A model generated the notes under the pieces. The model did not search any database. It was given only the letters and a program-made list of their open reading frames with translations, and was not told the DNA's origin. Shown here one piece after another: positions 7,001-45,231 of a DNA stretch of 64,000 bases. Source of the DNA: Mustelus asterias. Taxonomy: Eukaryota. The stretch spans positions 40,114,001 through 40,178,000 of the forward strand of contig NC_135808.1 of NCBI RefSeq assembly GCF_964213995.1. The letters are read 5' to 3'. Position 1 is the first letter of the stretch; each line of letters opens with the position of its first letter. Both the position numbers and the translations under genes were made by a program.

Positions 7001-7151
7001 CTACTACCCTGATATTATCTTTTATTAACAGAGCTACCCCACCACCTTTTCCTTCCTGTCTATTCTTCCTAAACGCCTGATACCCCTGGATATTCATCTT
7101 CCAGTCCTGGTCTCTCTGCAGCCACGGTTCTGTAGTGGCCACTAGATCATA

Positions 7152-7947
7152 ATGTGGAGATGCCGGCGTTGGACTGGGGTAAACACAGTAAGAAGTTTAA
7201 CAACACCAGGTTAAAGTCCAACAGGTTTATTTGGTAGCAAAAGCCACACAAGCTTTCGAAGCTCTAAGCCCCTTCTTCAGGTGAGTGGGAATTCTGTTCA
7301 CAAACAGAGCTTATAAAGACACAGACTCAATTTACATGAATAATGGTTGGAATGCGAACACTCACAACCAATAAAGTCTTTAAGAAACAAAACAATGGGA
7401 GTGGAGAGAGCATCAAGACAGGCCAAAAAGATGTGCACTCAATTTACCATAACGGTTACCCGAATATCAGAGGCCGAATGCGGTCACGGGCATTCGGCCT
7501 CTGATATTCGGGTAAGCGTTCTCCAAGGCGGCCTTCGCGACACACGACAGCGCAGAGTCGCTGAGCAGAGACTGATAGCCAAGTTCCGCGGGCACGGGGA
7601 CGGCCTCAACCGGGATGTTGGGTTCATGTCACACGATTTGTAACTCCCGCGGTTGCGTGGACCTGCGGGGTTTCACTGGCTGTCTTGTCTGGAGACAGTG
7701 CACATCTTTTTGGCCTGTCTTGATGCTCTCTCCACTCCCATTGTTTTGTTTCTTAAAGACTTGATTGGTTGTGAGTGTTCGCATTCCAACCATTATTCAT
7801 GTAAATTGAGTCTGTGTCTTTATAAGCTCTGTTTGTGAACAGAATTCCCACTCACCTGAAGAAGGGGCTTAGAGCTTCGAAAGCTTGTGTGGCTTTTGCT
7901 ACCAAATAAACCTGTTGGACTTTAACCTGGTGTTGTTAAACTTCTTA
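7152..7947 (+). mobile_element. Penelope-like element (5'-truncated: GIY-YIG C-terminus + pLTR, with an inverted pLTR) inserted in the CR1
   Basis: GHSASDIRVSVLQGG...EQRLIAKFR..DGLNRD; 7178-7440 is an inverted copy of ~7697-7948; 12-bp TSD CACTAGATCATA at 7140-7151 and 7948-7959. Confidence 0.9.
7853..7889 (+). ncRNA. Minimal hammerhead ribozyme motif in Penelope pLTR (inverted copy at 7247-7283, minus strand)
   Basis: cac-CTGAAGA-a-GGGGC-ttaga-GCTTC-GAAA-GCTT-gtg. Confidence 0.7.
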
Positions 7948-10249
7948 CACTAGATCATACCCATTTGTGCTGATTTGCACCATCAACTCATTAACTTTGT
8001 TCCGAATGCTTCGTGCATTCAAGCAAAGTGTCTTTATTCCAGCTTTTATCTGGACCCGATTTGATGAAACGCTATCAACCTCTCCCTCGCCCACTACTCC
8101 TTTAACTACTTGAATGCCCTCATTCACTTGCACTCGCTCCCTCTCCTCTACCATTGATTTTGTAATTCCTCTTACCTCTGCACCCGCCCCCCCATAAATT
8201 AGTTTAAAGCCCTATCTACAGCCCTAGTGATACGATTCGCTAGGACTCTGGTCCCAGCTATATCAGTGATCCAGCTATATCATTACTAAAGATAAACTGA
8301 ATCCTTCGACAAAATAATTTCTCTATTAGTCCTGCCACCACTTCATCACTTATCAGTGGATTCTCCACCCTTACCTTATACTCCACTTCTCACCCTGAAT
8401 TCCACATATTATCACCTTTTCTCGCAATACTTCTTCCAAACTACGTAACTCATCTCTCACCATCAAAGATTGACTTACCACGGTATCTCCTAAACTTTTA
8501 ATGTCTTTACCTACTCTTCCTGGTTGACATGAGTAAACTTTACCCATACAAGTAAATTCTTGAAAGAGATCTGGCACTTTCTCATGAATCAAACGCAGAT
8601 CAAGTTGTACATTCTTTTGCATCTCTTTAGCTTCAACTATGGTTTCCTTTACCACTTTAACAAACCCCAATCGCTTATCATATTTTATCGCATCTGTCTT
8701 CCCAGTGCTTATCTTAATTTGATTTGATTTATGATTGTCACATGTATTAGCATGCAGTGAAAAGTATTGAAAAGTATTCACCGACCAACACTGCGACCTT
8801 GTGTGCCCTATTTTATTACAGTAAAAATATCTAAGGCTTTTTATTTGTCTTCCACCCTCATGTGTTTCCTTATTAAGTTGAGGTACACTGTCTTTATTAT
8901 CTCCCAAAAGATCCCCTTTACCTTTTTCACCTGAGGATTTCCCTTTTCCCCCAGTTTATTTCCCTCACACGCTGAAACAGATATCAGAAAGCAAACTTTG
9001 ATGATAAACTAATTCATAGTCATCTGCCATTTCAGCTGCAAATCTCTCAGTTTTACCCCTCTGCTCTTTCACATGAGTTCTCACTACTTCGGGAAGTAAA
9101 TTTTTAAAAACTTCCAAAATAATCATTTTTAAAGAGCATAATATGTCTGATCTATTTTCAAAGCCCTATCCACCTATCAAAATTGCTTTGTTTGATCCTT
9201 TCAAATTCTATTTATGTTTCACCAGGTTCATTCCACAGAGAGTGTGGGTGCCTGAAATGCGCTACCGGAAGAGGTGATAGAAGCAGGCAGATTCGCAACA
9301 TTTTTCTATGGGAAAAAAAACTGTTCTCCAGGCATCACCTGACATGTCAATCATTTGCCACCAGGAATTTAAAAAGGGTCATCAGTACCCTCAGGACACT
9401 GCATTGGGCCAGATTTAAAATAAACATTGCTCCAATTATCCTGCTTCAACAACAATAAAAAATATCGGTTACAGACAACATGGCATCAAAATAAAAATGC
9501 CAGGCCTGCTTGAAATACCTTACAGAGAACATGTTTAAAATGCATTTCTGAAAGGCACGGTATTGCCACACTTCACAGCACTAACTCTGTAATTGATCCG
9601 AAGAACCATAGTTTTGGACAAGGAGCTCAGATTGAGATCACATATATTCCACCTGTCAGAAAGGAATACTCGTACATCTCCAAAAAAGATGCTGTCACAT
9701 GAGAACAATATGCAACACTGATTACAATTAATTGTATCAGAATGGCAAGTTAAAAGATTAATATATTTTGGTTACATGATGATTAAACATAACTGGGTCA
9801 CAACATAATTATGAAACATGCTTTTCAACTGCAAAGTACAGAGTAGAAGCTCAGAACAAAGAAGTCCAAATGTGTGCAGGTTAGGTGGATTCGCCATGCT
9901 AAATTGCCCTTTAGTGTCAGGGGGACTAGCTGGGATAAATGTATGACGTTATGGGGGATAGGGCCTGGGTGGGATTGTGGTCGGTGCAGACTCGATGTGC
10001 CGAATAGCCTCCTTCTGCACCAAATGATTCTATGATTCGATCTATGGAACAGACAATGCCAATTGCTTCCGGAACATTATTTCCTCTCTTGTACCTCCAG
10101 TGCTGTAAATACTCATCACATGCATACAATTCTTTCTCTGCTGAAATTCAGGAGTTGCTGACTCTGACTGGATTCAGTGTTGCACCAATATGAGACTCAT
10201 GTATCCATTTGTCGTATGGAATTTCTTTAATGGTTGCCAAATTCTCTTA

Positions 10250-11331: not shown

Positions 11332-12636
11332 TCAAAAATAAGTCTTTATGTAGATATTTTCGTAAGCTGGAGCACTTGGTTGCATGGGTGTCATGATTAT
11401 CATCTTCTTCTCCTCGATTGCCGCCATCTCTGCCACCTTCTTAGTTGTAGTAGAACAACAATACTTCATCAGCTGCACAATTATGATGATAATCAAAATA
11501 AAGATAAAAAGATGTGCAACTCGTTGCAGTATATTCATCCCAATCGATTCGATCCAGCCAGTTGTCCAGCTCCCCATTGAAAACTGCCCTGGTTGTTTCA
11601 ACTTTTCGACGTCCTTCCGAATGTGGGTTACCAGATTTGTTATGTTCTCTGAAGTGTCTGGAATATAGGTACAGCACTTTGGTCTGATTGAGGCACATGT
11701 TCCGCCTCTGGCCACTAAAATAAAGTCCAATGCCATACGATTTTGCAACACAACTGTACGCATTGCAACCATCTGGTCGCTGATCTCGGCCAGTGCTGCA
11801 GCTGTATCATTAGCACCTTTTTCTCAAATTGAAGTAATAGCTTCTATTTCCAAAGACAGTTTCATGTGTGAATAGGGTGGCATCATTATACCCAAAAGGT
11901 GGTCCAGTCCCACCAAAGCTCGTCTTCTCCTTTCTTTTGGAAATTGGTTTGTGTAGAAAATATATGGGACCACATATCCCAAATAGCAAGATCCCTTCCA
12001 TCCTGAAGGCAACCATAGGCAGGTTTTGCTTCCACAAATCTAATAAGTTCCATTTAGAGTTGGATAAGTATTTTCCTCTTCAAAACAATATGGAATATTG
12101 CAGACTTTATCATCACTAGGTTGATCCAAACAAATTTTGCTGGTTATATCTACTGAATATCTCCACTTGATAGGCCCTAAATCTATCCCATGTCTCTTCT
12201 TGCTCTCGATGCATACCATTCCCTGGGCCTCTGAGTCTGCCCCATTTAGAATAAGGCTGGGAGCTGGATTGGTGGTGTCAAAAACAGGTGAGTACCTATT
12301 CATGTGACCTGGCACCCCTGTGCAAGATCTATTTCTATAAAAAAAATCTATTCTAACACATTCCTTAATGAATCCTGTCACCGTTGCCCAGTGATCTCTA
12401 AAAGTCTGAGTGAGCTGATCCCACACAATTAAGTCTGCCCACAATATTGGGACCGGTCACAAGGGAATTCCTTCCTCTGCATGAATGGGAATGTGAGTGC
12501 ACATCCAACATTTAGATATGTCATCAGCTGCCTTAGAATATATGTATGCCATTTATAGATAAGTGTTCATATGCAATTCTCGATGGACTGATTGTACTAC
12601 ACATAACTCACTAATACAATTGAATAAAATAGTCAT
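11332..12636 (-). pseudogene. env: Endogenous retroviral env (gamma-type), single frame with 4 premature stops
   Basis: ATG 12636; SU CWMC (CXXC) at 12510-12499; furin site ERRRR/ALVG; ISD LQNRMALD; CASIRPKCC (CX6CC); hydrophobic TM; ORF pieces 12040-12444, 11824-12012 and 11332-11772 are all in one frame. Confidence 0.9.
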
Positions 12637-13974: not shown

Positions 13975-15875
13975 CACCTATTGCAGCAACAGGTCCACAG
14001 CAGACACCATCTCCCTGGCCCTCCACTCAAACTTGGAACACGTGGATAGCAAGGACACTTGTTTCAGACTCCTATTAGTTGACTACAGCTGAGCCTTCAA
14101 CACCATTATCCCAATACAACTCAACTCAAAACTCTGTGGCTTAGGGTTCAGCTCCTCCCTCTGCGACTGGATCCTAGACTTCCTCCTCCACAGACCACAA
14201 TCAGTAAGGATAGGTAATGATAAGATAGCTCCTCCACGACTATCCTCAACACCACTGCCCTACAAGGCGGAGTCCTCAGCGCCTTACCCTACTCTTTATA
14301 CACTTATGACTGCATAGCCAAATTCCCCTCCAACTGCATTTTCAAGTTTGCTGATGACACCATTGTAGTGGGTCTGATCTGAGACAATGATGAGTTGGTG
14401 TACAGGAGAGAGATAGATAGTCTGGTGAAATGGTGCAATGACAACAACCTCTCATAAGAACATAAGAACATAAGAAATAGGAGCAGGAGTAGGCCATCTA
14501 GCCCCTCGAGCCTGCCCCGCCATTCAATAAGATCATGGCTGATCTGACGTGGATCAGTACCACTTACCCGCCTGATCCCCATAACCCTTAATTCCCTTAC
14601 CGATCAGGAATCCATCCATCCGCGCTTTAAACATATTCAGCGAGGTAGCCTCCACCACCTCAGTGGGCAGAGAATTCCAGAGATTCACCACCCTCTGGGA
14701 GAAGAAGTTCCTCCTCAACTCTGTCTTAAACCGACCCCCCTTTATTTTGAGGCTGTGTCCTCTAGTTTTAACTTCCTTACTAAGTGGAAAGAATCTCTCC
14801 GCCTCCACCCTATCCAGCCCCCGCATTATCTTATAAGTCTCCATAAGATCCCCCCTCATCCTTCTAAACTCCAACGAGTACAAACCCAATCTCCTCAGCC
14901 TCTCCTCATAATCCAAACCCCTCATCTCCGGTATCAACCTGGTGAACCTTCTCTGCACTCCCTCCAATGCCAATATATCCTTCCTCATATAAGGGGACCA
15001 ATACTGCACACAGTATTCCAGCTGCAGCCTCACCAATGCCCTGTACAGGTGCATCAAGACATCCCTGCTTTTATATTCTATCCCCCTCGCAATATAGGCC
15101 AACATCCCATTTGCCTTCTTGATCACCTGTTGTACCTGCAGACTGGGCTTTTGCGTCTCATGCACAAGGACCCCCAGGTCCCTTTGCACGGTAGCATGTT
15201 TTAATTTGTTTCCATTGAGATAGTAATCCCATTTGTTATTATTTCCTCCAAAGTGTATAACCTCGCATTTCTCAACGTTATACTCCATTTGCCATATCCT
15301 CGCCCACTCACTCAGCCTGTCCAAATCTCTCTCAATGTCAGCAAAATAAAGGAGATAGTCATTGACTTCAGTAAGCATAGGGGAGGGCATGTCCCTGTTA
15401 CATCAGCGATGAAACGGAAATGGTCGAGAGCTTCAAGCTTCTAGGTGTTCAGGTTACCAACAGCATGCCCTGATCCCTCCGGGCTGATGCTGTATTTAAG
15501 AAAGTCCACCAGCATCTCTACTTTCTCAGGAGGCTAAGGAAATTCAACATGTCCGATACGACACCCCAATTCTTACAGATACACCAAAGAAAGCATCCTT
15601 TCAGGATGTATCACAGCTTGGTATGGCTCCTGCTCTGACCAAGACTGTCAGAAATTGCAAAGGGTTGTGAACGTAGCCCAGTTCATTCTCCCATCCATTG
15701 ACTCCGACTACACTTCTTGCTGCCTTGGAAAAGCAGCGAGCACAATCAAGGACCCCAGACACACACTCTTTCACCTTCTACTGTCGGGAAAAAGACACAA
15801 AAGTCTGAGATCACAAACCAACCAACTCAAGAACAGCTTCTTCCCTGCTGTCAGACTTTTGAATGGACCTACCTT
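13975..15875 (+). mobile_element. Rex1/Babar-type LINE RT fragment interrupted by a CR1
   Basis: DYS.AFNTI, PQG.VLS, KFADD remnants 14080-14360; resumes at ~15333 (LNVSK.KEIVIDF) through LKNSFFP. Confidence 0.8.
14453..15332 (-). mobile_element. Young 5'-truncated CR1/HER1 LINE
   Basis: Uninterrupted RT C-terminal ORF (RDLDRLSEWARIWQMEYN...RRNFFSQRVVNLWN) and (TTCTTATG)n tail. Confidence 0.95.
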
Positions 15876-17954: not shown

Positions 17955-18955
17955 TCAAAGAACAAAGAACAGTACAGCACAGGAAAAAGGCCCCTCAGCC
18001 CTCCAAGCCTGTGCCGCTCATTGGTCCAACTCGACCATTCGTTTGTATCCCTCCATTCCCAGACTGCTTATGTGACTATCCAGGTAAGTCTTAAACGATG
18101 CCAGGGTGTCTGCCTCCACCAGCCTACTTGGCAGCGCATTCCAGGCCCCCTCCACTCTTTGTGTAAAAAACGTCCCTCTGATATCCGAGTTATACCTCGC
18201 CCCTCTCACCTTGAACCCGTGACCCCTCGTGATCGTCACCTCCGACCTGGGAAAAAGCTTCCCACTGTTCACCCTGTCTATACCCTTCATAATTTTGTAC
18301 ACCTCTATTAGGTCTCCCCTCATTCTCCGTCTTTCCAGGGAGAACAAGCCCAGTTTACCCATTCTCTCCTCATAGCTAAGACCCTCCATACCAGGCAACA
18401 TCCTGGTAAACCTTCTCTGCACTCTCTCCAAAGCCTCCACGTCCTTCTGGTAGTGCGGCGACCAGAACTGGATGCAGTACTCCAAATGTGGCCTAACCAG
18501 CATTCTATACAGCTGCAACATCAGACTCCAGCTTTTATACTCTATACCCCGTCCTACAAAGGCAAGCATACCATATGCCTTCTTCACCACCTTCTCCACC
18601 TGTGCTGCCACCTTCAAGGATTTGTGGACTTGCACACCTAGGCCCCTGTGTGTTTCTGTGCTCTTGATGGCTCTGCCATTTATTGTATAACTCCCCCCTA
18701 CATTAGTTCTTCCAAAATGCATCACTTCGCATTTATCTGGATTAAATTCCATCTGCCATTTCTCCGCCCAATTTTCCAGCCTATCTATATCCTGCTGTAT
18801 TGTCCGACAATGTTCATCGCTATCCGCAAGTCCAGCCATCTTCGTGTCATCCGCAAACTTGCTGATAACACCAGTTACACCTTCTTCCAAATCATTTATA
18901 TATATCACAAATAGCAGAGGTCCCAGTACAGAGCACTGCGGAACACCACTGGTCC
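17955..18955 (-). mobile_element. CR1-type LINE 3' fragment
   Basis: ORF 18018-18983 with SGVPQ.SVLGP, KFADD, FFTQRV. Confidence 0.95.
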
Positions 18956-19142
18956 TGGAGAAGCTTGCAGATGCAAGAAGCACATCCTAGGAGAAATGAA
19001 GGTGACTCCAACATTGCCTTTTGCACAGGTCCTTGCTTCTATTGCCCCTGTGAACTAGTGTTGAGCTCTCATCTGGATAAGAGCCATCATTGTTGGCTGA
19101 AGCTTACATCTTCAACACCTTGGTGGATGTGTGAACAGCAAC

Positions 19143-21244: not shown

Positions 21245-21296
21245 ATGTTGCGGATCCTTTTCTCCATCTCCTTGTGTTTTTCCTGCGTCTCTTCCG
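21245..21296 (+). CDS. MHC class I-like heavy chain exon 1 (signal peptide MLRILFSISLCFSCVSS)
   Basis: Hydrophobic 17-aa leader ending at a phase-1 G|GTAAGG donor. Confidence 0.85.
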
Positions 21297-21654: not shown

Positions 21655-21915
21655 ACAGTAATTCCATTACCACGGTGTTTGTGGCAACATCTGGCATTAC
21701 TGAGTTACCTGAGTATTTTGGTGTAAGTATGATCAATGGAGTTCCAGTGACATCTTACGACAGTGATACCCACCAGACAGTCTCCCGGCAGCAGTGGATG
21801 GCAGACTCTTTTGATGGGGAGTACTGGGAATATCTCACAAACCAAGGGAATAAACTTTCTGCCATGGCTAAGGAAAATCTGAGGACAATAATGAAGGGGA
21901 CAAACCAGACATCCG
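21655..21915 (+). CDS. MHC class I-like exon 2 (alpha1 domain)
   Basis: CAG acceptor, 261 nt, DSNSITTVF...PEY..V.MING....YDS...SRQQWM....GEYWE...NQT, G|GTAAG donor, phase 1-1. Confidence 0.95.
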
Positions 21916-22149
21916 GTAAGATTAGTGGCTCTGGATCTCTCATTAACTGCCTGTTTAGCTGATACCAGACATCTACCTAACCACAGTTTTACTGCAGTGT
22001 GTAACACTGTGGTGTACAGTGCTTGGATCATCCTAGCCACATCTGTCATATATGTATAAAACAGGTGCCCACGCACCCAATATGGTGGACAGGCTAATTA
22101 CAAACCAGAAGTGTGGCAACAATGAATCATAGATTGATTGCAACAGAGA

Positions 22150-24450
22150 AGGAAGTCATTCAGCCTGTTGTGTCTGAATCAGCTCGAAGCAAGAACAACT
22201 CTGCTAATTCGCACTCCCTTACCCTTTTGACGTTGTCATGTTGGCCTTTCCTGTTAAGTTAATGATCTGAATTCCTTTTGAAAGCTTTGAATGTATTAGC
22301 CTCCAATATACCCTCAGGAAAACTCAAACCATACACTTCGTAACAAAGTTTTTAAAAAGAAAGATTTGGCACATCAATAGGGATGTTCATGACCACCAGA
22401 TGTTTCAAAGCACGTTACAGCTAATGATGTACTTTTGAAGTGCAGGAAATAAGACAGCCATTGCTGGAATTACTGGCACAGACAACAATGTGATCATGAC
22501 AGATAATCTGTTCATAGATATTGATTCAGGGTTAAATTATGGCCAGGATATTTGGGCTAATTCCCCTGCTCTACTTCAAAATACTGCCATCAGATTTTTA
22601 CATCCACCAGAGTAGGCAGATGAGGACTGGCTTAACATTTCATCCAAAAGAGGTATCTCCAGCAGTGCAGCACACTCTCAGTGCTGGAGTGTCAGCCTGG
22701 ATTTTTGAGCTCAAGCCCCAGAGGGAACTTGAATTCAAAACTTTGTGATTGAAATACAATCAATCTAGCCATGGCTGGCCCAGATTTTTCCTTGTGTTGC
22801 TATTGGTTGCTTTGCCTTAAAATTGGTGTTGGCTGGTCCTCCACCCTTCCACCAATGGAAACACTTTCTCCTTGTGTCTAGACCCCCTCTAGATTTTGTA
22901 CATCTTTATCAAAGCTCAACCTCCTTTTCTCTCATTCTTTTGTGAGGAGGATAAGCCTAATTCACAGAATAATAGAATTGTTCCAGTGCAGAAGGAGATT
23001 ATTTGGCCCATTGTGTAACACCGTCTCTCTAAAGGAGACTCATGACTTAGTGCCATCCCCTGTACCCCTGGACGTTCTTTTTATTCAGATAATCATCTAA
23101 TGCCGCCTTAAATGCCTCAATTGAATCATATCTCCACAACACTTCCAGGCAGTGCATTCCAGACTCCAACCACTTGTTGTATGAAATAGTTTGCTTCTTT
23201 GAAAATCACCTTAAGTCTGTGTACTCTCCTTCTTGACCCTTTTACAAGGGGGAACGGTTTCTCCCTATCTGCTCTGTCCAGCCCCCTCATGGTTTGAATA
23301 TCTCTATCAACTCTCTCTTAGTTTTCTTCTCTCCAAGAAGAACAGTCCCAACCTCTCCAATCTGTCCTCATAACTGAAGTTTCTCATCCCTGGAACCATT
23401 CTTGTAAACCTCTTTTGGAGTCTCCAATGTTTTCACATCATTCCTATAGTATGGCATCCAGAACACAATATTCCAGCTGAGGTGTAACTAATGTCTTGTG
23501 TAAGTTAAGCATAACCCTCTTATTCTTGTACTTCTTGTACTGTATGCTTCTATTAATAAGGCCCAGAATACTGTATATTTTATTAACTGCTCTCATGACT
23601 TATCCTGTCACCTTCAATGATCAATGCATATATATACACCCAGGTCCAATTATTCCATGTGACTGAAAGGAGTATTCTGTAAACATTTTCTGCACCCTCT
23701 CTAATATCTTCACATCTTTCCTAAGATGTGTACCCAGAATTAAACACAGTACTCCAGTTGAGTCTGAATTAGTTATTTTGTAAAGGTTTATCTTTATATT
23801 GCATTGGCACACTATGGCTGGAATTCTTCAGCCGCTCTTACCAGGGGGATCATCTGGTCCTGCCGATGATGAAACCCTGCAGTGGGTTTCCCAATGATGG
23901 GGGTACGTAGAACAGAAAACCCCTTTGCCAGCGGAGGGACCAGAAGATCCTGCTACCAGTCAATGGCGGGCAGCCTCTACCACAGTGAAACATGCTATGT
24001 GGGACGTGGAAAATTGTGTCCTATATCTCGATTTATAAACCCCAGGATCTGAAATGCCTTTTTAACCGGTTTCTCATCCTGACATATCAGCCGAAATGAT
24101 TTTACTCAGATACCCCAGCAATACAGTGGAGTTCCTGGGGTCCTTAGATCATTAATTTTCCTGATATATATTAATGACCTAGGCTTGGGTGCACATGGAA
24201 AACATTTCAAAGTTTGCAGATGACACAAAACTTGGGAGTATTGTGAACAGTGAGGAGGTTCAAGATAGACTTCAAAAGGATAAAGACCAAGGGCCAATGG
24301 AATGGGTGGGCAAATAGCAGATTAAATTTAATGAAGAAAATGTGAGCTGATACATTTTTGGAGAATGAACAACAATATAAAATGAAATGTACAATTATAA
24401 AGAGGGTGCAGGAGCAGAGGAATCTGAGGACCATGTGCAAATGCATCTGT
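22150..24450. mobile_element. Cluster of old CR1-type fragments in MHC intron 2
   Basis: Minus-strand CR1 3' fragments (~22960-23800) and a plus-strand RT remnant with KFADD (~24120-24440). Confidence 0.65.
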
Positions 24451-25714
24451 TGAAGGAGCAGAGGAACCTGGGGACCATGTGTTGATGACAGTACTGGTAG
24501 GTGTGATTATAGTATGATCCTTGTGGAAACCAAGACTGGTATTCATGCTAAGGATATCTTCCACTGTGCTTTATAGTACAACCATTGTGCCAAATGGGAA
24601 AGATCCATGAGGTGCTATGGGCCACCAGCAGTAGAATTGTACTCAATGACAATCTGTAATTTAATGGCCTGGCATAACCCCAGGCTACCAATACCATCAA
24701 GTCATTACTGTAATGGGGAGGCAGTAGTGCAGTACGATTGTCACTCAACTAGTAATGCAGAGACCCAGGGCAATGCTCTGGGGATCCGGATTTGAATCCC
24801 ACCAGGGCAGATGATAAATTTTCTTTAAAAACTCGATAGTACATCATCAACCATTCTCGATTGTCGTAAAATACCACTGGTTCACAAATGTCCTTTAGGG
24901 AAGGAAATCTGCCATCCTTATCTGGTTTGGCCTCGTTGTAATTCCAGACTCACAGCAATGTTGTTAATATTATATAGCCTAGTAAACCTCCTTACTGACA
25001 TTTGGGGGCTACTGCCAAAATTTGAAGACTTGTCCTATAGACCAGTGAAGCAACAGCCTGACAGTCACAGAGTCACACCTTACACACAACCATGACCATT
25101 CCTGGATATGTCCTGTCCCACCAGCAGGACAAATCCAGCAGAGCTGGTGGTGGCACAGTGGTATACAGTCAGGAGGGGTTACCCTGTGAGTCCTCAACAT
25201 TGACTCTGGACCCCATGAAGTCTCATGTTACCAGGTCAAATATGGGCAAGGAGGTGGGGTCAAGTGAGGTAAGTGCGCGAGAGGCTGCATATTTGCAAGT
25301 GCTGGTACACTCATCTTTTAAACCTTTTGTTTTATCCTGATTTCAACACACAATTATTTGATCCTGATGTGTATAATCTGTGCTATGTTCTTGAAAGATC
25401 CTGGCTAAATTTTGGCAATGGGGAGCCAAGTTAAGTCTAGGCATTCCTTGTTTGATTGAGGTAGTAGGAGACAACCAGTGTGGGCTCAGTTTGCAGTGCA
25501 GTTTTGCTGGTGACTGTGTCTGCACTTCAGCAATGCCTTTGGTGACGAGATGATCGCTGCCATTCTGAGGGAATTTGTGGACAATGGTCTAGGCTCCACG
25601 ACAGATTGTTGGTGCTCACGTTGATGAACTGTGAGATATCCAAAAGAGAATGGAGGAAGTGGAGAAGAGAATCTTGTCAGTTGAGAAGGTAGTTTCCTCG
25701 GTGGAGTTTATCTT

Positions 25715-26015
25715 AAAGTTTACTTATTAGTGTCACAAGTAGGCTTACATTGACATCGCAATGAAGTTACTGTGAAAATTCCCTGGTCGCCACACTCTGG
25801 CACCTGTTCGGGTACACTGAGGGAGACTTTAGCACAGCTTATTCACCTAACCTGCAAATCTTTGGACTGTGGGAGGAAACCGGAGCACCCGGAGGAAATC
25901 AACGCAGACACGGGGAGAATGTGCAAACTCCACACAGACAGTGACCCAAGCCAGGAATCGAACCCAGGTCCCTGGCTCTGTGAGACAGCAGTGCTAACCA
26001 CTGTGCCACCGTGCC
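25715..26015 (-). mobile_element. HE1-like SINE (alternative tail)
   Basis: Same head and core as other copies. Confidence 0.85.
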
Positions 26016-26324
26016 ATTATATGTTATTCTGTTGTACTGTGCCAAAAAAATGAGAGTTGTGCGGTATTTACCTATTTTTAATGTGCTGTAATCCTTACTT
26101 TTACACTGAGAGAGTACATTTTTTGTACCCTTCACTTTTTCTATCGATGAGTAATGCTACAGCAGGGTGGCTAGTAGGTGGTTTGGTACAGAGGTGGTTG
26201 GTCTGGCCTGACAAGCCCTCATTGTGGGTGAGGAAAATCCCCATTAGAACTATTACTGTCACATTTTCTTTTGCACTTTTGTTATTTTAGAATTATGGAA
26301 TCATTGCTGGTCTCCAATGAAGGT

Positions 26325-26440
26325 CATGATGTGGAGATGCCGGCGTTGGACTGGGGTAAACACAGTAAGAAGACTAACAACACCAGGTTAAAGTCCAACA
26401 GGTTTATTTGGTAGCAAAAGCCACTCGCAAAAGTAACTGT
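26325..26440 (-). mobile_element. Short Penelope pLTR-only insertion
   Basis: ATGTGGAGATGCCGGCGTTGGACTGGGG... pLTR terminus; 12-bp TSD TCCAATGAAGGT at 26313-26324 and 26441-26452. Confidence 0.85.
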
Positions 26441-28745
26441 TCCAATGAAGGTACAGACAAGTCATGTATCCTGGACAAGACTGGGTTATTTTCTTTCTGT
26501 CATTGGAGTATCTAGAAATGGGGGTACTTTGCTTTGTTCAATGTATAAATAGTGATGTGAGTATCCTTAGCCTGTTGGCCCCTATTCTAATGCATTGCTG
26601 ACCCTAATTTAGTTTGGTTGAGTAAGTTGGGGCAGTAGTAATTGAGCTTATCTGGATCAGGTGGAGGAGTACGTGACCCTCCCATGAGATGTCCCCTTTC
26701 GGGTGCTTCTGGACTACACTCCTTCTGACGATTTGGGCTCCCCTGGGGTGGGGGGGCCGGGGTGGGGTGGTGGTAGTGATGCAATATCCTGTTTCTGATG
26801 AGATTATGCTGTTCGGTTCCTGGTATGCGTTTTGCAATAATGTACACCGTTCAACCATGTCTGGCATCTATTAACTAAGTGCTGTTACATGAGGTGCTAT
26901 TACTGGCTCTGATTTGTTACAGTGATTTGGCTGGGCATGGGTGAAGTCTGTTGTGTTGCAATCTTGGCATGGTGTAAGAATCATTGGCATCTGAACCATT
27001 AGTCTGAGTATTTGCTGGTCTTTTCTGTATGTAAAAGTGGAATAATGATCACTTTATCATGTACTAGGTTTTGGGAATTTCTAAGAGTTCGTGTTAGAGT
27101 TTGTGTTGTTTATAAAAAATGTTAAGATCCTCAATAAAAATATGTTAAAAAACATGGGCAAGGAAACCTCCTACTGATGACCACCCCTCTTTAGCTAATA
27201 AATCAGTTCTCCTTCACTTGGAGGAAGCACTGAGAGTGGCAAGGGGACATAATGTACTCTGGGTGGGTGACTTTAATATGCATCACCAAGAGTGGCTTGG
27301 TAGTACCACCACAGACTGAGCAGGGTGCTAAAGGGCATAACTGATAGACTGGGTCTGCAGCTGGCGATGATGGAACCAACAAAAGGGAAAAACATACTTG
27401 ACCTCAGCCTTGCCAACCTGCCTGCTACAGATGTATGGGTAGGAGTTAAGATCATTCAGTCCCTGTGGAGAAGAAGTCCTGGCTTCACATTGAGTATACT
27501 CTCCATTGGGCTGTGTGGCGCTATCACTAAAAGGGATAAACTTTGAACAGCTCAAAACTGGACATCCGTGAAGTGTTGTGGGCCATCAGCAACTGTACTC
27601 AACCATAATCCATAATCATGGCCCGGCGTATTCCCCGCTCTACCATTACAACCAAGGCAGGGGATCAATTCTGGTCAATGAAGAGTGCAGGAGAGCATTC
27701 CAGGAGCAGCACCAGGCATACCTAAAAATGAGATGCCAACCTGGCGCATCCACAGCTACTTGCATGCCAAACAGCATAAGCAGCAAGTAGTAGACAGATC
27801 CAAGAGATCCCACAATCAATGGATCAGATCTAAGCTCTGCAATCCTGCCACATCCAGTCGCGAATGGTGATGGACAATTAAACAACTCACTGGAGGCTCC
27901 ACAAATATCCTCATCCTCAATGATGAGGAGCACAGCACTTCAGTGCAAAAGATAAGGCTGGAGCATTCGCAATAATCTTCAGCCAGAAGTGCCGAGTGGA
28001 TGATCCATCCCGGCCTTCTGCAGAGGTCTCCAGCATCACAGATATCAGCCTTCAGACAATTCGATTCACTCCACATGATGACAAACAAACCCTAAAGGCA
28101 TTTGATGCTGTAAAAGCTATGGGCCCGGACAACATTCCGGCAATATTATTGAAGACCTGTGCTCCAGAACTTGCCACACCCAAATCTAAGCTGTTCAAAA
28201 TCAGCTTCAGCATTACCCAGCAATGTGGAAAATTGCCCAGCTATGTCCTGTGCACAAGAAACAAGAGAAATCCAACAAAGCAATTATCACCCCATCAGTC
28301 GACTCCTGATCTTCAGTAAAGTAACGGAAGGGGTCATCAACCGTGCTGTCAAGTGGTATTTACTTCCACCAGGGTTACTCAGCTCCTGATCTTATTACAG
28401 CCTTGGTTCAAATATGGACAAAAGAGCTGAACTCCAGAGGTAATATGAGAGTGACTGCCCTTGACATCAAACGACTGAGTATGGCATCAAGGAGCGCTGG
28501 CAAAACTGCAGTCAATGGGAATCGGGGGAAAATCTTCCACTGGTTGGAGTCATATCTGGCACAAAGGAAGATGGTTATGGTGGTTGCAAGTCAATCATCT
28601 CGGTGCCAAAACATCACAGGGTATTGTCCTCAGCCTAACCATCTTCAGCTGCTTCATCAATGACTTTCCTTCCTCCAAAAAGTCAGAAGTGGGAATGTTT
28701 GCTGATGACTGCTCAATGTTCAGTACGATTCATGACTCCTCAGTT

Positions 28746-29348
28746 TGTGATGATACTGTGTCTTTTATATCATGCTTCTTGTAAGGGGTATGTTTAAAAT
28801 CAGCTATATTTTACATAGCACTGATTTGTTTGGGCAACAGGCAGCTCCATTGAGAATGCAGGATAATGACTGATTTTAGCTGACTGTGTTCATCTAAAAG
28901 GAGTTAATGCATTGGCATTTGCTTAGGTTTCCTTTGGGGTTTCAGAGTAGGGTGTTGTTTAGGTTGGCTGACAGAGTCATGTGTTAATGGGGAGAGCTAA
29001 GCTTGCAGGTGAGACGGTGTTTTAAACAGTCAGTTTCTACCTGGTTCTGAAAGAAACAAGAAGTGTCTTTCTATATCTCTCTCTGTCTCTGGAGATTTGC
29101 TGTTTGAGGTTGTCAGAAGACCGATGTCTCTATGTCTCTCTCTCTTCCCCGTCCCCCCCGAATTAATTTGTTATAGTTAAACTGTGTCGTTAAGTAAAGT
29201 TTGTTTTGAAAAATGCTTGCCAGTTTGTCAGTAGAATCACACCTGGAGTGAAACATCATATCACCACACTAATGTCAAAACAGCCAATAGTTGGGGTCCA
29301 GACTAACTTCATAATATATCTTGGGGTTTCTGATCTCATACCCTGACA
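28746..29348 (+). mobile_element. Probable solo LTR
   Basis: TGTGA...TGACA termini; interrupts a LINE coding remnant; imperfect 4-bp TSD (AGTT/AGGT). Confidence 0.5.
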
Positions 29349-29530
29349 AGGTGCTGAAGCAGTTCATGTCCAAATGCAGCAAGATCTAGGCAATATCCCG
29401 GCTTCAGCTGACGAATGACAAATAACATTTGTGTCACGTAAGGGCCAGATAATGACCATCCTCAACAAGAGGGAATCTAACCATCACCCCTTGACAATGA
29501 ATGACATTACCATCACAAATACCACATCAT

Positions 29531-30680
29531 CAGAATGGTTGACGAGGGAAGGGCCGTGGATGTCGTCTATATGGACTTTAGTAAAGCGTTTGACAATGTC
29601 CCTCATGGTAGGTTGGTGCAAAAGGTTGGATCTCATGGGATAAAGGGGGAGGTGGCTAGATGGGTGGAGAACTGGCTTTCCAGCTGGATGCCTGTGACTA
29701 GTGGTGTTCCGCAGGGCCCTGTATTGGGACCTCTGCTGTTTGTGATTTATATAAACGATCTGGAAGAAGGTGTAACTGGGGTGATCAGTAAGTTTGCGGA
29801 CGACACAAAAATGGCTGGACTTGCAGATAGTGAGGAACATTGTCAGAGGCTACAGAAGGATATAGATAGGCTGGAAATTTGGGCTAAGAAATGGCAGATG
29901 GAGTTCAATCCAGATAAATGCGAAGTGATGCATTTTGGTAGAACTAACGTAGGGGGGAGCTATACGATAAATGGCAGAACGCAGAGGGACCTGGGTGTGC
30001 AAGTCCACAGATCCTTGAAGGTGACGTCACAGGTGGAGAAGGTAGTGAATAAGACATATGGCATGCTTGCCTTTATAGGACGGGGCATAGAGTATAAAAG
30101 TTGGGGTCTGATGTTGTAGTTGTATAGAACGTTGGTTCGGCCGCATTTGGAATACTGCACCCAGTTCTGGTCGCCACACTACCAGAAGGACGTGGAGGCT
30201 TTAGAGAGAGTGCAGAGGAGGTTTACCAGGATGTTGCCTGGTATGGAAGGGCTTAGTTATGAGGAGATTGGGTAAACTGGGGTTGTTCTCACTGGAAAGA
30301 CCAAGGATGAGGGGTGGCCTGATAGAGGTGTATAAAATTATGAAAGGCATAGATAGGGTGAACAGTGGGAAGCTTTTTCCCAGGTCGGTGGTGACCTTCA
30401 CGAGGGGTCATAGGTTCAAGGTGAGGGGGGGGGGGGGGGGGGGAGGTTTAACACGTATATCAGAAGGACGTATTTTACACAGAGGGTGGTGGGGGCCTGG
30501 AATGCGCTGCCAGGCAAGGTGGTGGAGGTGGACACACTGGGAACGTTTAAGACTTACCTAGATAGCCACATGAAAGGAGTGGGAATGGAGGGATACAAAA
30601 GAATGGTCTAGTTTGGAGCAGGGAGCGGCACGGGCTTGGAGGGCTGAAGGGCCTGTTCCTGTGCTGTATTGTTCTTTGTA
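29531..30680 (+). mobile_element. CR1-type LINE 3' half
   Basis: ORF 29535-30119 with MDFSKAFD, GVPQG, KFADD; CR1 tail. Confidence 0.95.
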
Positions 30681-31119
30681 TCGAGGACAAAGCAGCCACT
30701 TGATTGCTATTCCTTCCATAAACCTTCCTTCCGTCCATCACCAATGAACAGTAGCAGCTGTGTGTACTGTCTACAAGATGAACTGCAGGAATTCATCAAG
30801 ATTCCTCAGGGAACACCTTCCAAACCCATGACCACTACATCCAGAATGGCAAGGGCAGCAGATACCTGGGAACAACTACCTGGAGGTTCCGCTCCAAGTT
30901 ACTCACCATCCTAACTTGGAAACACATTGCGTTTCTTCACTATCACTGGGTTAAATCCTGGAACTCCCACCCGAACACTACTGTGGGTGTACCTATACTT
31001 CCAGGACTACTGCAGCTCAAGGCGGCAGTCCACTACCACCTACTCAAGAGTAACTCGGGATGGGCAATAAATGCTTGCGCAGCCAGTGATGCCCACATTC
31101 CATAAAGTTAAGAAAAAAA

Positions 31120-31310
31120 TTTATTGAACCCATAGAAAGATCTATTATGTAATACAGAACCCACAAAGATTTATTTCTGTAATACTGAGCTCATGGATGG
31201 ATCTATTGTAATTATGTTGCTGCAGTGCATTTTATTCCTGTAATACTGAGCCCAGAAATGTGTCTAATATTGTAATATATGACAATACTGAACCCATTGA
31301 GAAATCCACT
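31120..31310. repeat. Degenerate ~31-bp minisatellite just upstream of the alpha2 exon
   Basis: Repeated GTAATACTGA(A/G)CCCA...ATCTATT units. Confidence 0.7.
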
Positions 31311-31371
31311 AATGAAATAAGGACTCTTTTCCATGAACAGTCTAATCTTTTTCTCTGTTGATCAATGACAG

Positions 31372-31647
31372 GAGTACACATTCTGCAATGGATAAGGAAC
31401 ATTGAGGTCAGTGAAGATGGCTCCATTAAGAGATCGATGAGTGTTGGATTTGATGGAAAGGACTATATTAGTTTAGAATCAGAGAGAATGAGGTGGGTCG
31501 CAACACATCACAATGCAGTGAAGACTAAGGAGAAATGGGATTCTGATGAATCCTGGAACACGTTTTGGAAATGGTTGATGGAAGTAGAACTTGTTGAACG
31601 TTTAAAATCACGTCTATATTTTGGCAAAAAATATCTCAACAGGAAAG
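31372..31647 (+). CDS. MHC class I-like exon 3 (alpha2 domain, no cysteines)
   Basis: 276 nt, GVHILQ...GFDGKDYISL....RWVA....AVKTKEKWD...; AG/GT boundaries, phase 1-1. Confidence 0.95.
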
Positions 31648-31832: not shown

Positions 31833-32111
31833 TTCAGCCTGATGTCTTCATCTCCAGAAGTGCGCCCATTGGTCTATATAAGCTGTTCACTCTCTCCTGC
31901 CTGGTTACTGGGTTTTATCCTGCAGACATCGAGGTTACTTGGCTAAGGAATGGAGAGGTAATGTCTGAGACACTATCCTCAGGGGTTCGACCGAACCACG
32001 ATGAGACCCATCAGATCCAGAAAGTGATTGAAATTAATGCTGGGGATGAGGATCAATATTCCTGTCAAATTGAACACAGCAGCCTGGCAGAGTCCAAGAT
32101 CCATCAGTGGG
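31833..32111 (+). CDS. MHC class I-like exon 4 (alpha3 C1-set Ig domain)
   Basis: 279 nt, LSCLVTGFYP.DIEVTWLRNG...RPNHD.T.Q...YSCQIEHSSL...W; AG/GT, phase 1-1. Confidence 0.97.
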
Positions 32112-32837: not shown

Positions 32838-33861
32838 ATGATGTGGAGATGCCGGTGTTGGACTGGGGTAAACACAGTAAGAAGTTTAACAACACCAGGT
32901 TAAAGTCCAACAGGTTTATTTGGTAGCAAAAGCCACACAAGCTTTCGGAGCTCTAATTACGGCATCTCCTCCGGAGCCTTCAACATGTCATTGATGAAGA
33001 CGAACATCTCGCCAAGGCCATCCCCACACCCCCCACTTCTTGCCTTCAAACAACCGCACAACCTCAAACAGACCATTGTCCGCAGCAAACTACCCAGCCT
33101 TCAGGAGAACAGTGACCATGACACCACACAACCCTGCCACAGCAACCCCTGCAAGACGTGCCGGATCATCGACACAGATGCCATCATCTCACGTGAGAAC
33201 ACCATCCACCAGGTACACGGTACATACTCTTGCAATTCGGCCAACGTTGTCTACCTGATACGCTGCAAGAAAGGATGTCCCGAGGCATGGTACATTGGGG
33301 AAACTATGCAGATGCTGCGACAACGGATGAATGAACACCGCTCAACAATCACCAGGCAAGACTGTTCTCTTCCTGTTGGGGAGCACTTCAGCGGTCACGG
33401 GCATTCGGCCTCTGATATTCGGGTAAGCGTTCTCCAAGGCGGCCTTCGCGACACACGACAGCACAGAGTCGCTGAGCAGAAACTGATAGCCAAGTTCCGC
33501 ACACACGAGGACGGCCTCAACCGGGATATTGGGTTCATGTCACGCTATTTGTAACCCCCACAGTTGACTGGACCTGCAGAGTTTCACTGGCTGTCTTGTC
33601 TGGAGACAATACACATCTTTTTAGCCTGTCTTGATGCTCTCTCCACTTACATTGTTTTGTTTCTTAAAGACTTGATTAGTTGGAAGTATTCGCATTCCAA
33701 CCATTATTCATGTAAATTGAGTTTGTGTCTTTATATGCTCTGTTTGTGAACAGAATTCCCACTCACCTGAAGAAGGGGCTTAGAGCTCCGAAAGCTTGTG
33801 TGGCTTTTGCTACCAAATAAACCTGTTGGACTTTAACCTGGTGTTGTTAAACTTCTTACTC
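32838..33861 (+). mobile_element. Penelope-like element (GIY-YIG endonuclease + pLTR, short inverted pLTR)
   Basis: ORF 32985-33554 with CKTC, NVVYLIRC...WYIGET...RMNEHR...GLN; 9-bp TSD GAATAGTAT at 32829-32837 and 33862-33870. Confidence 0.92.
33764..33800 (+). ncRNA. Minimal hammerhead ribozyme motif in Penelope pLTR
   Basis: cac-CTGAAGA-a-GGGGC-ttaga-GCTCC-GAAA-GCTT-gtg. Confidence 0.75.
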
Positions 33862-40158: not shown

Positions 40159-40320
40159 AAATACCAGAAAGTGGTGGGCACTCACAACTTGGAATTATAG
40201 CTGGATCAATAATCAGTGTACTGGCTGCTATATTCGGAATAATTGCAATAGCCATCTGGAAAAGGCCACAGAGAGGGAAAAAAGAATCAGAGAGTGGAGA
40301 ATCTGGATCTGGGGAATCAG
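40159..40320 (+). CDS. MHC class I-like exon 5 (connecting peptide, TM, proximal cytoplasmic tail)
   Basis: TTTTTCAG acceptor; EIPESGGHSQ-LGIIAGSIISVLAAIFGIIAIAIW-KRPQRGKKESESGESGSGES; G|GTGAGG donor; 162 nt, phase 1-1; not in the ORF track. Confidence 0.9.
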
Positions 40321-42204: not shown

Positions 42205-43590
42205 AGAAACATCAAAAAACTACAGCACAAAACAGGCGCTTTGGCCCCACAAGTTGTGCCGAACATATCCCTACCTATAACTCTCAATCCTATTAAGTCC
42301 CATGTACTCATCCAGGAGTCTCTTAAAAGACCCTATTGAGTTTGCCTCCACCACCACTGACGGCAGCCGATTCCACTCGCGCACCACCCTCTGTGTGAAA
42401 AACTTCCCCCTAACATTTCCCCTGTATCTACCCCCCAGCACCTTAAACCTGTATCCTCTCGTAGCAGCCATTTCCACCATGGGAAAAAGCCTCTGAGAGT
42501 CACTGTCTGTGTGGAGTTTGCACATTCTCCTCGTGTCTGCGTGGGTTTCCTCCGGGTGCTCCGGTTTCCTCCCACAGTCCAAAGATGTGCGGGTTAGGTT
42601 GATTGGCCAGATTAAAAATTGCCCCTTAGAATCCTAAAATGGGTAGGTTAGAGGGATTAGCGGGTAAATATGTGGGGGTAGGGCCTGGGTGGGATTGTGG
42701 TCGGTGCAGACTCGATGGGCCGAATGGCCTCCTTCTGCACTGTAGGGTTTCTATGATTCTATGATTCTAGTCCACCCGATCTATGCCTCTCAACATCTTG
42801 TATACCTCTATTAGGTCTCCTCTCATCCTACGTCTCTCCAAGGAGAAAAGACCGAGCTCCCTCAATCCATGCCACTCAATCCAGGCAACATCCTTGTAAA
42901 TCTCCTCTGCACCCTTTCAATCTTTTCCACATCCTTCCTGTAATGAGGCGACCAGAACTGAGCACAGTACTCCAAGTGGGGTCTGACGAGGGTCTTATAT
43001 AGCTGCATCATTATCCCCGGACTCCTAAACTCAATCCCTCGATTGATAAAGGCCAGCACACCATACGCCTTCTTAACCACCTCCTCCACCTGTGGGGCCG
43101 ATCTCAGAGTCCTATGGACCCGGAACCCAAGGTCCTTCTGATCCTCTACAGTACTAAGAGTCTTTCCCTTTATATTGTACTCCCTCATCCCATTTGACCT
43201 GCCAAAATGGACCACTACGCATTTATCTGGGTTGAAGTCCATCTGCCACTTCTCCGCCCAGTCTTGCATCCTATCAATGTCCCTCTGTAACTTCTGACAT
43301 CCCTCCAGACTATCCACCACCCCACCAACCTTCGTGTCGTCGGCAAACTTACCAACCCATCCCTCCACTTCCTCATCCAGGTCATTTAAGAAAATGACAA
43401 ACAGCAAGGGTCCCAGAACAGATCCCTGGTGCACACCACTGGTGACCGACCTCCATTTAGAAAAAGACCCATCTATACCCACTCTCTGCCTCCTTTGGGC
43501 AAGCCAGTTCTGGATCCACAGGGCAGCAGCCCCTTGGATCCCATGCCCTCTCACTTTTTCTAGAAGCCTTGCATGGGGGACCTTATCGAA
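42205..43590 (-). mobile_element. CR1 3' fragment with nested 5'-truncated HE1 SINE (42499-42768, plus)
   Basis: ORF 42862-43554 with RT motifs; SINE core and tail flanked by an AGTC duplication. Confidence 0.92.
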
Positions 43591-44879
43591 CGATGTTAAC
43601 TACATGTTTTTTGGTCTGGGATTTTTTTTCTGCTATTGGCAAAGTCTGGTGTCGGGCATGAAAAGTGGTGTTGAGTCTCCTGATGGCAATGGTGACATTT
43701 TCCACCGTACAGTGCAGGACTTTGAAGAATGGAAAGCAGGGGTTCCAAGTTGCATCGCTGGTGGGCAGCCTCTGATTCATCTGCCCCAACATCAACTCAC
43801 CACTTTGATGATCTGGGTGCCATTTCTAAGGGCGACCCAACACATCAAGAGCATACCAAGAATATTCTTCACACAGCTGCACCCCCTGGTACAAAACCAG
43901 TACCTTCTGGCATTACCCTGGCACCTTTAGCTTTACCCTCTCCCAACTGAGCTCTGCACTCATCTCTGAGCTCCCCTTGGAATACCTCTCACCAGGTGCC
44001 CAGTCGTGTACCATGTCATTCTGACATCACGCCGTCATGGATGGATTTTTTTAGACTGGGTGAGGTGGGGGAAGGGGGTATGATTCTAGCATACAGATCC
44101 GAAAATGATATGCAAATATATTAGAATGAAGTTCCCGACATTGAACAATGGGAAAGGCAGCCTCCCACTGACACAATCGCTTCCTGCTTTGACATCAACA
44201 TGAAACATGACTTTGATATTCTTGTAAAATTTTCTGCCAAACCCCTCCTACACGAACGGGAGAAGAAAATCCTGGCTCAGGCATTTTTTTAACCACATCT
44301 TTGAGGAAGGGTTATCTTTACTGTGCCTCATAAACTCACTGTTCCTTCGATCCTTGGACATATTCTGATGCCCTCCTTTATACATTGGAATCATGATAGT
44401 TATCCTTCAATCCTCTGGCACTTTTCCATTTGCTGATGAGTTTTTATGTAATTGTAACAGTGTCTCTGCGATCTTAACTTCTCAGAATATATATGGATAT
44501 AATCCATCCAGACCAGTTTATCCTGAATTTGATTTGTTTACTAATTATTTCCCACCTTTCATCTTCAATGTCTTGATATCTATTTTGATCTTTTCTTCCC
44601 TTTTAATTTCCCTGGTAAACACAGAGACAAAGTAATTATTCAACATTACTGACCCTTAATCATGTATATTCCTGAATGGCCCTTTTCCTATCCTGTCCCT
44701 TTCTTGATTTTCCTTCTGTGATCAATTTCTGAAAAACTTCAAAAATTATTTTTATGTTCTTTGTTAATTTAGTTTCGTAGTTCCCACGTGCCTTCTTTTA
44801 TTGATTGCTTCCTTAATGTCTTCAAATTCCTTTCTGTCATCCTCTTTTTTAATGCCTATGTACTGGGTGTGTGTTTCAG

Positions 44880-45184
44880 CACAACTGTTTTTGGAGACCG
44901 ACCCGTCTCACCATCATCCAGAAACCATGGATAATAATGTGGAACTGGATCTGAGTGAATCTGACCCTCATCTCACCCTGGAGCCTTTTCCGAGCGGGTT
45001 AAAAAGTTCACATGACCCAGTGGAAGGTAACAAAACCACAACTGAACAAGAACAGAGTTCCTTCCAAACAGACACTTCAACTGACCTAAAATGTAATCTA
45101 GATAACAATATTACAGAACAATTAACCAACTACAAGGAAGGAGAAACAATGCAGAATTTACTAAGACATTATGATCGTCATTGA
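44880..45184 (+). CDS. Candidate terminal cytoplasmic exon of the MHC class I-like gene (~101 aa, acidic)
   Basis: TTTCAG acceptor in compatible phase 1; open for ~101 codons in apparently non-repeat AT-rich sequence (AQLFLETDPSHHHPE...QNLLRHYDRH*). Confidence 0.5.
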
Positions 45185-45231
45185 AAAAGCCCTGGAAATA
45201 ACTAGTCAGAGTAGAAAAACTCTGAATGGCC

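What the first reader, a model, noticed from the sequence alone, without database searches (positions are those of the whole stretch)
21655..31647. Asymmetric binding groove: N-terminal anchors lost, C-terminal anchors mostly kept
Seen (manual alignment): Y7->T, Y159->L, W167->R, Y171->R and position 84->G are changed, while Y59, Y123, T143, K146 and W147 remain. Bulky aromatics occupy W97, F155, W156 and W158. Inference: a remodelled, basic A-pocket end with a hydrophobic centre could bind a non-peptide or N-terminally modified ligand such as a lipopeptide or phospholipid.
Basis: partly seen in the sequence, partly recalled or inferred. Interest (0 to 1): 0.7.

Follow-up and report, generated by a model that had tools for sequence, protein, structure and literature searches.

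The report
Shark MHC variant with GTPase-derived tail
This is an intact, spliced shark immune gene (nonclassical MHC class I) from a multi-copy family whose groove has lost the residues that grip a peptide's front end, so it likely holds something other than ordinary peptides; its branch of the family also carries a tail that matches part of a nearby GTPase gene and was likely captured from it.

Summary
Every residue call is correct in HLA-A2 register. The gene is intact, spliced in two public runs and under purifying selection (dN/dS about 0.27). The asymmetry is a family trait, not a property of this gene: it belongs to a multicopy, shark-only, cysteine-less family (Y7 and C101 in none of 66 rows) that is most likely the published UEA lineage, whose defining paper I could not read. 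The 'kept' C-terminal anchors are weak evidence: R84 is lost, T143 and Y123 are no better conserved than their block, and K146/W147 persist in lipid-binding UGA and in ULBP3. More distinctive is a branch from 12 shark species in which R99, R167 and R171 are invariant (14 of 14). In the galeomorph species it carries an acidic tail matching the giant exon of a URGCP-type GTPase gene in the family's cluster. Best guess at the ligand: anionic and amphipathic (about 0.4); a closed groove is the main rival. No pocket was measured and no ligand tested.

The parts
21245..21296 (+). Leader (signal peptide) exon
   Evidence: Predicted; identical to residues 1-17 of RefSeq protein P0003
21655..21915 (+). 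Alpha1 exon (T7, G24, Y59, L63, Q66, G67, G84; N86 glycosylation site kept)
   Evidence: Splice sites; 100% match to P0003; alpha1-to-alpha2 join seen as a loose end in runs X3 and X4
31372..31647 (+). Alpha2 exon without the C101-C164 disulfide; W97/M114/W147/W152/W156 cluster
   Evidence: alpha2-to-alpha3 joint GT..AG in X3 and X4, not in the contigs of X1 or X21
31395..31397 (+). Arg99 codon
   Evidence: 14 of 14 branch rows, 22 of 52 other family rows; 0 of 69 outside class I
31599..31613 (+). Arg167 to Arg171 codons
   Evidence: Both in 14 of 14 branch rows; R167 in 5 of 52 and R171 in 1 of 52 other family rows; 1 and 0 of 69 outside
31833..32111 (+). Alpha3 (Ig C1) exon, both cysteines intact
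   Evidence: alpha3-to-TM join as a loose end in X3
40159..40320 (+). Connecting peptide, transmembrane and first cytoplasmic exon
   Evidence: Exact match to P0003 residues 290-343
44880..45184 (+). Acidic cytoplasmic-tail exon matching a URGCP-type GTPase exon. RefSeq splices out at 45026; the frame read through gives 101 residues to a stop at 45184, as in the horn shark and catshark models
   Evidence: its joining to the TM exon was not seen in laid reads

Best explanation
The window holds an intact, spliced shark nonclassical MHC class I gene of a cysteine-less multicopy family (likely UEA), whose groove has lost the peptide amino-terminus anchors and is predicted to hold an anionic, amphipathic non-peptide or modified ligand instead. 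Shown: gene structure, splicing, class I fold, loss of the P1-pocket residues and the alpha2 disulfide, invariant R99/R167/R171 in a 12-species branch, and a tail exon homologous to a GTPase exon. Inferred: the chain pairs with beta2-microglobulin; W97, M114, W147, W152 and W156 form an aromatic wall that may also stand in for the lost disulfide; small residues at 7, 24, 34 and 67 leave a cavity under the A/B end; the arginines bind a phosphate or carboxylate head; the long acidic tail would route the molecule differently from its short-tailed paralogues. Family assignment about 0.85-0.9; ligand class about 0.4.
For: Open frame over six exons and a RefSeq model. Spliced contigs in 2 of 4 runs laid. 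dN 0.149 against dS 0.558 with the 33.55 Mb paralogue. AlphaFold2 mean pLDDT 82.7 with a class I fold; best VIA match nurse shark UGA, Z 27.4, tied within 1 with opossum-type and mouse class I and ZAG. G24, Y59, L63, G67, R99, L164, R167 and R171 in 14 of 14 branch rows. E-pocket residues W-M-W-W-W sum to 1074 cubic A against 868 in the classical-type gene, and the A-pocket residues carry net charge +2 against 0 (pocket lists recalled). Chicken YF1*7.1 binds N-acyl ligands with an aromatic-lined pocket and uses its T143/W147 equivalents (PMC12212280 passages and section 10). Shark UFA and UGA are reported to bind lipids (review PMC12562908, as a personal communication).
Against: No ligand data. 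Model coordinates were not returned, so groove volume and electrostatics were not computed, and the model leans on an alignment rich in ordinary class I. F9 (Y9 in 9 of 14), W97 and R99 crowd the floor where known lipopeptide binders have small or apolar residues. Acidic residues lie beside the arginines. In YF1 the equivalent helix positions form a roof over the pocket, not its lining (offset inferred). The tail's dileucine is already present in a shifted frame of the GTPase exon, so its conservation may be passive; the S. torazame model ends in the other frame.
Confidence: 0.4

Rival explanations
1. Closed or filled groove. The tryptophan cluster and R167/R171/E163 (and R66 in the sister gene) salt bridges seal the cleft, and the molecule acts as a ligand-free surface protein read by an NK-type or other receptor, like ULBP, MIC or HFE.
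For: W147, W156 and M114 in 66 of 66 rows and W152 in 65 of 66; ULBP3 also keeps K146/W147; helix positions near 159-170 form a roof in YF1; invariant surface arginines suit a fixed protein partner.
Against: The model is closer to open-groove class I (Z 26-27) than to MICB or ULBP6 (Z 19.1, partly because those chains lack alpha3; HFE at 26.1 is tied); floor residues G24 and G67 are invariant in the branch, which suggests a kept cavity.
Confidence: 0.27
2. It still binds peptides but in a non-canonical way: anchored at the F end by N77, T143, K146 and W147, open at the A end, favouring long or amino-blocked peptides with acidic residues near the arginines.
For: N77, Y123, T143, K146 and W147 are present in this gene; loss of W167 and of the disulfide would lower the A-end wall; the gene lies 1.1-1.5 Mb from proteasome-subunit exons of the likely class Ia region.
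Against: R84 is lost in 14 of 14 branch rows; T143 and K146 are replaced in the three orectolobiform rows of this gene's subgroup while the arginines stay; the tryptophan cluster fills the middle.
Confidence: 0.2
3. It presents N-myristoylated lipopeptides like Mamu-B*098 or chicken YF1*7.1.
For: F-end residues, W152/W156 and small G24/G67; an R66-E163 pair, which roofs the pocket in Mamu-B*098, is present in 8 of 14 branch rows.
Against: Positions 9, 70, 97 and 99 are bulky or charged; this gene has Q66; both known binders keep Y7.
Confidence: 0.1
4. The changes are drift in a decaying duplicate.
For: 3 of the 17 closest alpha2 copies carry stops; a 95% identical neighbour has lost alpha1 and alpha2; L159, L70 and I101 are private to this gene within the branch.
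Against: dN/dS about 0.27 (averaged over both branches since the duplication); spliced contigs; the same arginines in 12 species.
Confidence: 0.03

Closest known systems
Shark UEA nonclassical class I lineage (Almeida et al. 2021, PMC8454915; not held, so recalled, plus mentions in PMC10751288 and PMC12562908)
   Same: Multicopy, on the MHC chromosome, main cluster beside the single UDA gene, all named hits from sharks; alpha2 about 64% identical (59 of 92, counted by eye) to the nurse shark query in the PMC10751288 supplement, which also lacks both cysteines.
   Different: This copy lies about 7.3 Mb from the main cluster, near the likely class Ia region, and has the arginine triad and the GTPase-derived tail. 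Whether the published sublineages include these traits I could not check. The supplement labels its nurse shark query 'UCA'; no sequence there is labelled UEA.
Dogfish UCA (Squalus acanthias AF515705, as printed in the PMC10751288 supplement)
   Same: No C101 or C164; W152 and W156 present.
   Different: Alpha2 only about 32% identical (29 of 92, by eye); lacks T143, K146 and W147.
Chicken YF1*7.1 (MHC-Y) and rhesus Mamu-B*098, lipopeptide binders
   Same: Class I fold with the A end not used for a peptide amino terminus; F-end contacts kept.
   Different: Both keep Y7; Mamu-B*098 has small residues at 9, 70, 97 and 99; neither is described with R99 in the passages read.
Shark UGA (9CH4) and UFA (8GM8), CD1-like
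   Same: Shark nonclassical class I; UGA is the top structural match (Z 27.4) and keeps K146/W147.
   Different: Separate low-copy lineages that keep the alpha2 cysteines; 33% and 25% identity; a UGA-like alpha1 lies elsewhere in this genome (L055).
MR1
   Same: Aromatic-lined groove with arginines that holds small metabolites (recalled); high sequence score.
   Different: The Schiff-base lysine position aligns to T45 here, and MR1 keeps the disulfide.

Membership tests
Classical MHC class Ia (shark UAA) | Peptide-terminus residues Y7, Y59, R84, T143, K146, W147, Y159, W167, Y171 | tested here: not met
   4 of these 9 kept, plus Y123
Classical MHC class Ia (shark UAA) | Alpha2 disulfide C101-C164 | tested here: not met
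   I101 and L164; both cysteines in 69 of 69 outside representatives
Classical MHC class Ia (shark UAA) | High allelic polymorphism in the groove | tested here: inconclusive
   No listed differences in alpha2 in three samples of one study, which may be one animal
MHC class I superfamily | Leader, alpha1, alpha2, alpha3, TM and tail exons in phase 1; class I fold | tested here: met
Shark UEA lineage | Multicopy family in the MHC, clustered beside UDA | tested here: met
   Of 16 other close alpha2 copies, 14 lie at C8:32.31-32.80 Mb next to a UDA-like gene at 32.28 Mb (L025, L056), one at 33.55 Mb and one at 3.66 Mb (arrangement). This gene itself lies at 40.14 Mb.
Shark UEA lineage | Restricted to sharks (from the paper's title; detail recalled) | tested here: met
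   All named hits are from 13 shark species, one unnamed; no ray or chimaera, within the limits of a word-seeded search
Shark UEA lineage | Grouping in a tree with sequences labelled UEA | not testable with these tools
   Defining papers not held; 'UEA' occurs 0 times in the supplement read
Dogfish UCA | Close identity to AF515705 | tested here: not met
   About 32% in alpha2, by eye
Mamu-B*098-type lipopeptide presenter | Small residues at 9, 70, 97 and 99 | tested here: not met
   F9, L70, W97, R99
Mamu-B*098-type lipopeptide presenter | R66-E163 roof bridge | tested here: not met
   Q66 with E163 in this gene; R66 in 8 of 14 branch rows
MR1 | Lys43 for the Schiff base (recalled) | tested here: not met
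   Aligns to T45
CD1-like shark UFA/UGA | Lipid bound in a deep hydrophobic groove | not testable with these tools
   No coordinates or ligand data; by sequence a separate lineage

The most novel reading that the evidence does not exclude
An old, low-copy branch of shark class Ib genes evolved a dedicated arginine-capped pocket for a phosphorylated or acidic lipid-like antigen, then in galeomorph sharks captured a sorting tail from a neighbouring very-large-GTPase exon. That would be a CD1/MR1-like antigen system built independently, without the alpha2 disulfide.
Probability: 0.25. Interest if true: 0.75.

Novelty: new variant of a known kind. Interest (0 to 1): 0.42.

Why it matters
Shark class Ib lineages are described as of unknown function (PMC10751288). 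Most of this family is a fast-changing cluster, but this branch is conserved across 12 species (65-75% identity over alpha1-alpha2), so it is the natural member to express and elute. It would test what a class I groove binds without its disulfide and P1 pocket. The tail is a datable case of a class I gene taking a new cytoplasmic exon from an unrelated neighbour. A search of the held library for shark, MHC class I, cytoplasmic tail and URGCP/GVIN1 terms found 0 papers, but the UEA paper itself and the thesis are outside that library and may cover these traits.

Tried and rejected
Misalignment as the cause of the lost tyrosines: rejected (gap-free helix). Pseudogene: rejected. A one-residue shift of R170 to 171: rejected, L168, L172 and G175 stay in register. 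Reading the UEA and UDA papers: not held. Pocket volume and electrostatics: the fold tool returns no coordinates, so only side-chain volume sums were made. The run search listed no holder on record as RNA; this is no evidence either way, and the spliced contigs in X3 and X4 are what show RNA. Leader-to-alpha1 and TM-to-tail joins were not examined in reads. The careful tree did not finish: the tree is a quick IQ-TREE run with SH-aLRT only, midpoint-rooted and without an outgroup. The alpha1 numbering was off between 39 and 58 and was corrected. No fused class I-GTPase protein was found among the 226 proteins held and no class I exon in about 23 kb upstream of the GTPase exon. Earlier scan findings: none. 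Paper searches for UCA with disulfide (0 papers) and for UFA/UGA (only the review) gave no description of the cysteine loss, but the printed UCA sequences show it. No complex prediction was run.
Full report
What is there. The finding spans exactly the alpha1 exon (21655-21915) and the alpha2 exon (31372-31647) of an MHC class I-like gene on the + strand. Leader (21245-21296), alpha3 (31833-32111), transmembrane (40159-40320) and tail (from 44880) exons complete an open frame. The protein is identical to RefSeq XP_078074009.1, listed for the shark Mustelus asterias. Contigs of 2 of 4 laid runs join alpha1 to alpha2 and alpha2 to alpha3, and one of them alpha3 to the TM exon, so the gene is transcribed and spliced. 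Against its paralogue at C8:33.55 Mb, dN is 0.149 and dS 0.558. AlphaFold2 on a 121-row alignment gives a class I fold (mean pLDDT 82.7); Foldseek's best matches are bird class I, and VIA-align ranks nurse shark UGA first (Z 27.4) within 1 unit of several others.

Observation. Numbered against the HLA-A2 and UAA rows printed in the supplement of PMC10751288 (parts 97 and 98 read) and a classical-type gene of this genome, all residue calls hold. PMC8236899 (section 18 and passages) lists Y7, Y59, D/E/Q63, Y159, Y171, G26 and W167 as the makers of the P1 pocket and ties W167's position to the disulfide and G100. That whole module is gone except Y59. Among 69 outside class I representatives the strong asymmetry occurs once and both cysteines are present in all 69.

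It is a family trait. The alpha2 exon has 73 matches in the genome, all on the same chromosome; 17, including this one, are at least 55% identical and none of these has C101. Two protein searches gave relatives from 13 shark species and no named ray or chimaera. From 75 extracted alpha1-alpha2 regions, 70 were distinct, and I dropped 4 isoform or partial rows, leaving 66. Y7 and C101 occur in none; W147, W156 and M114 in 66; W152 in 65; K146 in 60; T143 in 53. The strong asymmetry holds in 33 of 66 and a looser form in 60 of 66. The main cluster at 32.31-32.80 Mb lies beside a UDA-like gene, the arrangement reported for UDA and multicopy UEA (PMC10751288 passages). The supplement's nurse shark query labelled 'UCA' is about 64% identical in alpha2 and cysteine-less; dogfish UCA is about 32% identical and cysteine-less (both counted by eye). 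I conclude UEA with about 0.85-0.9 confidence. The defining paper was not held, and my memory that it reports loss of the peptide-anchoring residues and three sublineages is recall only.

Are the C-end anchors kept for a peptide? The evidence is weak. Residues 114-157 are conserved as a block (mean 0.85); T143 (0.80) and Y123 (0.71) fall below that and K146 (0.91) is little above it. R/Y84 is lost in all 14 rows of this gene's branch. K146/W147 persist in UGA, reported to bind lipid (review PMC12562908 passages), and in ULBP3. The invariant residues are tryptophans and M114, which look more like a packed core.

What is distinctive. A quick tree gives a branch (SH-aLRT 99; 17 rows, 14 after dropping isoforms) from 12 species, from the sevengill Heptranchias to whale shark. 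G24, Y59, L63, G67, A74, R99, L164, R167 and R171 are in 14 of 14 and E/D163 in 14 of 14. R171 is in 1 of the other 52 rows, a gene at 32.46 Mb whose alpha2 resembles this branch while its alpha1 does not. Its meaning is open: it may bind an anion, roof the pocket or face a receptor. Comparison with lipopeptide binders cuts both ways. Mamu-B*098 needs small residues at 9, 70, 97 and 99 (PMC4735555 passages), which fails here. YF1*7.1 binds N-acyl ligands among aromatic residues and uses its F-end threonine and tryptophan (PMC12212280 passages and section 10), which fits, and the R66-E163 roof of the macaque molecules is possible in 8 of 14 rows but not in this gene.

The tail. Other family members with a complete model mostly end in a short tail with a YTTA-like motif. 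This gene's last exon reads through for 101 acidic residues. It hits 19 of the 226 proteins held; 18 are named branch members and one is an unnamed representative. The Heptranchias member has the short-type tail. In the genome the exon matches the start of a 1674-residue open frame at C8:32.697 Mb, inside the main cluster, which Pfam calls URGCP plus URGCP GTPase. The DNA match has two parts: 112 of 152 bases in frame at the start, and 72 of 86 bases from about 1 kb further in, inside the URGCP domain, read in a shifted frame that supplies the tail's last residues and its stop. The protein alignment scores 144 against a shuffle mean of 31.6 and a maximum of 52 in 300 shuffles. Because the second piece lies inside the GTPase gene's own domain, the direction is most likely from GTPase to MHC, by duplication and internal deletion. 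The terminal dileucine could act as a sorting signal but came ready-made with the shifted frame. RefSeq's model for this gene splices out at 45026, and I did not see the TM-to-tail join in reads, so which tail is made is open.

Verdict. The groove pattern belongs to a known kind of shark gene. The conserved arginine branch with a captured tail is a variant I did not find described in the searches run, with the caveat that the key paper, its supplements and a thesis were out of reach. Ligand odds: anionic amphipathic ligand 0.4, closed groove 0.27, non-canonical peptide 0.2, N-myristoyl peptide 0.1, drift 0.03. Interest 0.42.

Noticed in passing
G000:C8:39.684-39.70 Mb (L067, L068, L062): A roughly 95% identical duplicate of this gene in which alpha1 and alpha2 are deleted, so the leader sits next to a shortened alpha3 followed by TM and tail exons. 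A loose end in run X1 appears to match the junction, which argues against an assembly error.
   Followed up: partly
G000:C8:32.697 Mb (L064, L074): A URGCP-type very large GTPase open frame of 1674 residues lies inside the class Ib cluster; the genome has 8 URGCP matches, 3 of them on this chromosome.
   Followed up: partly
window 21916-31371 (alpha1-alpha2 intron): RefSeq isoform X1 (P0056) inserts 32 residues between alpha1 and alpha2; the spliced contigs of X3 and X4 skip it. Its exon was not mapped.
   Followed up: no
G000:C8:33.616-33.625 Mb (L070, L071): An alpha1 exon of the same branch with a tail-exon fragment about 8 kb on, and no alpha2, alpha3 or TM match in the 50 kb fetched: another truncated copy.
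   Followed up: partly
G000:C8:32.46 Mb (L036, L002; P0008): Apparent chimera: alpha2 of the arginine branch with an alpha1 and short tail like the main cluster, suggesting exon exchange between paralogues.
   Followed up: partly
G000:C8:41.28-41.68 Mb: Proteasome-subunit exons and a cysteine-bearing class I alpha2 (L023), likely the class Ia region, lie 1.1-1.5 Mb from the window gene.
   Followed up: no
G000:C8:21.6-24.7 Mb: A large array of dozens of UBA-like class I exons, many in repeated identical-scoring sets, suggesting recent block duplication or both haplotypes assembled.
   Followed up: no
window 11332-11823 and 8371-8955 (- strand): Fragments that look like a retroviral envelope transmembrane part and a gag/protease-like stretch (motifs recalled).
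   Followed up: no
window 4797-7196, 14554-15402, 18018-18986, 27300-30560, 42862-43599, 45226-47687, 57110-59782; 32904-33554: Many broken LINE reverse-transcriptase copies, which make up much of the 9.5 kb alpha1-alpha2 intron and the flanks, and one Penelope-like endonuclease fragment in the alpha3-TM intron (recalled likeness).
   Followed up: no
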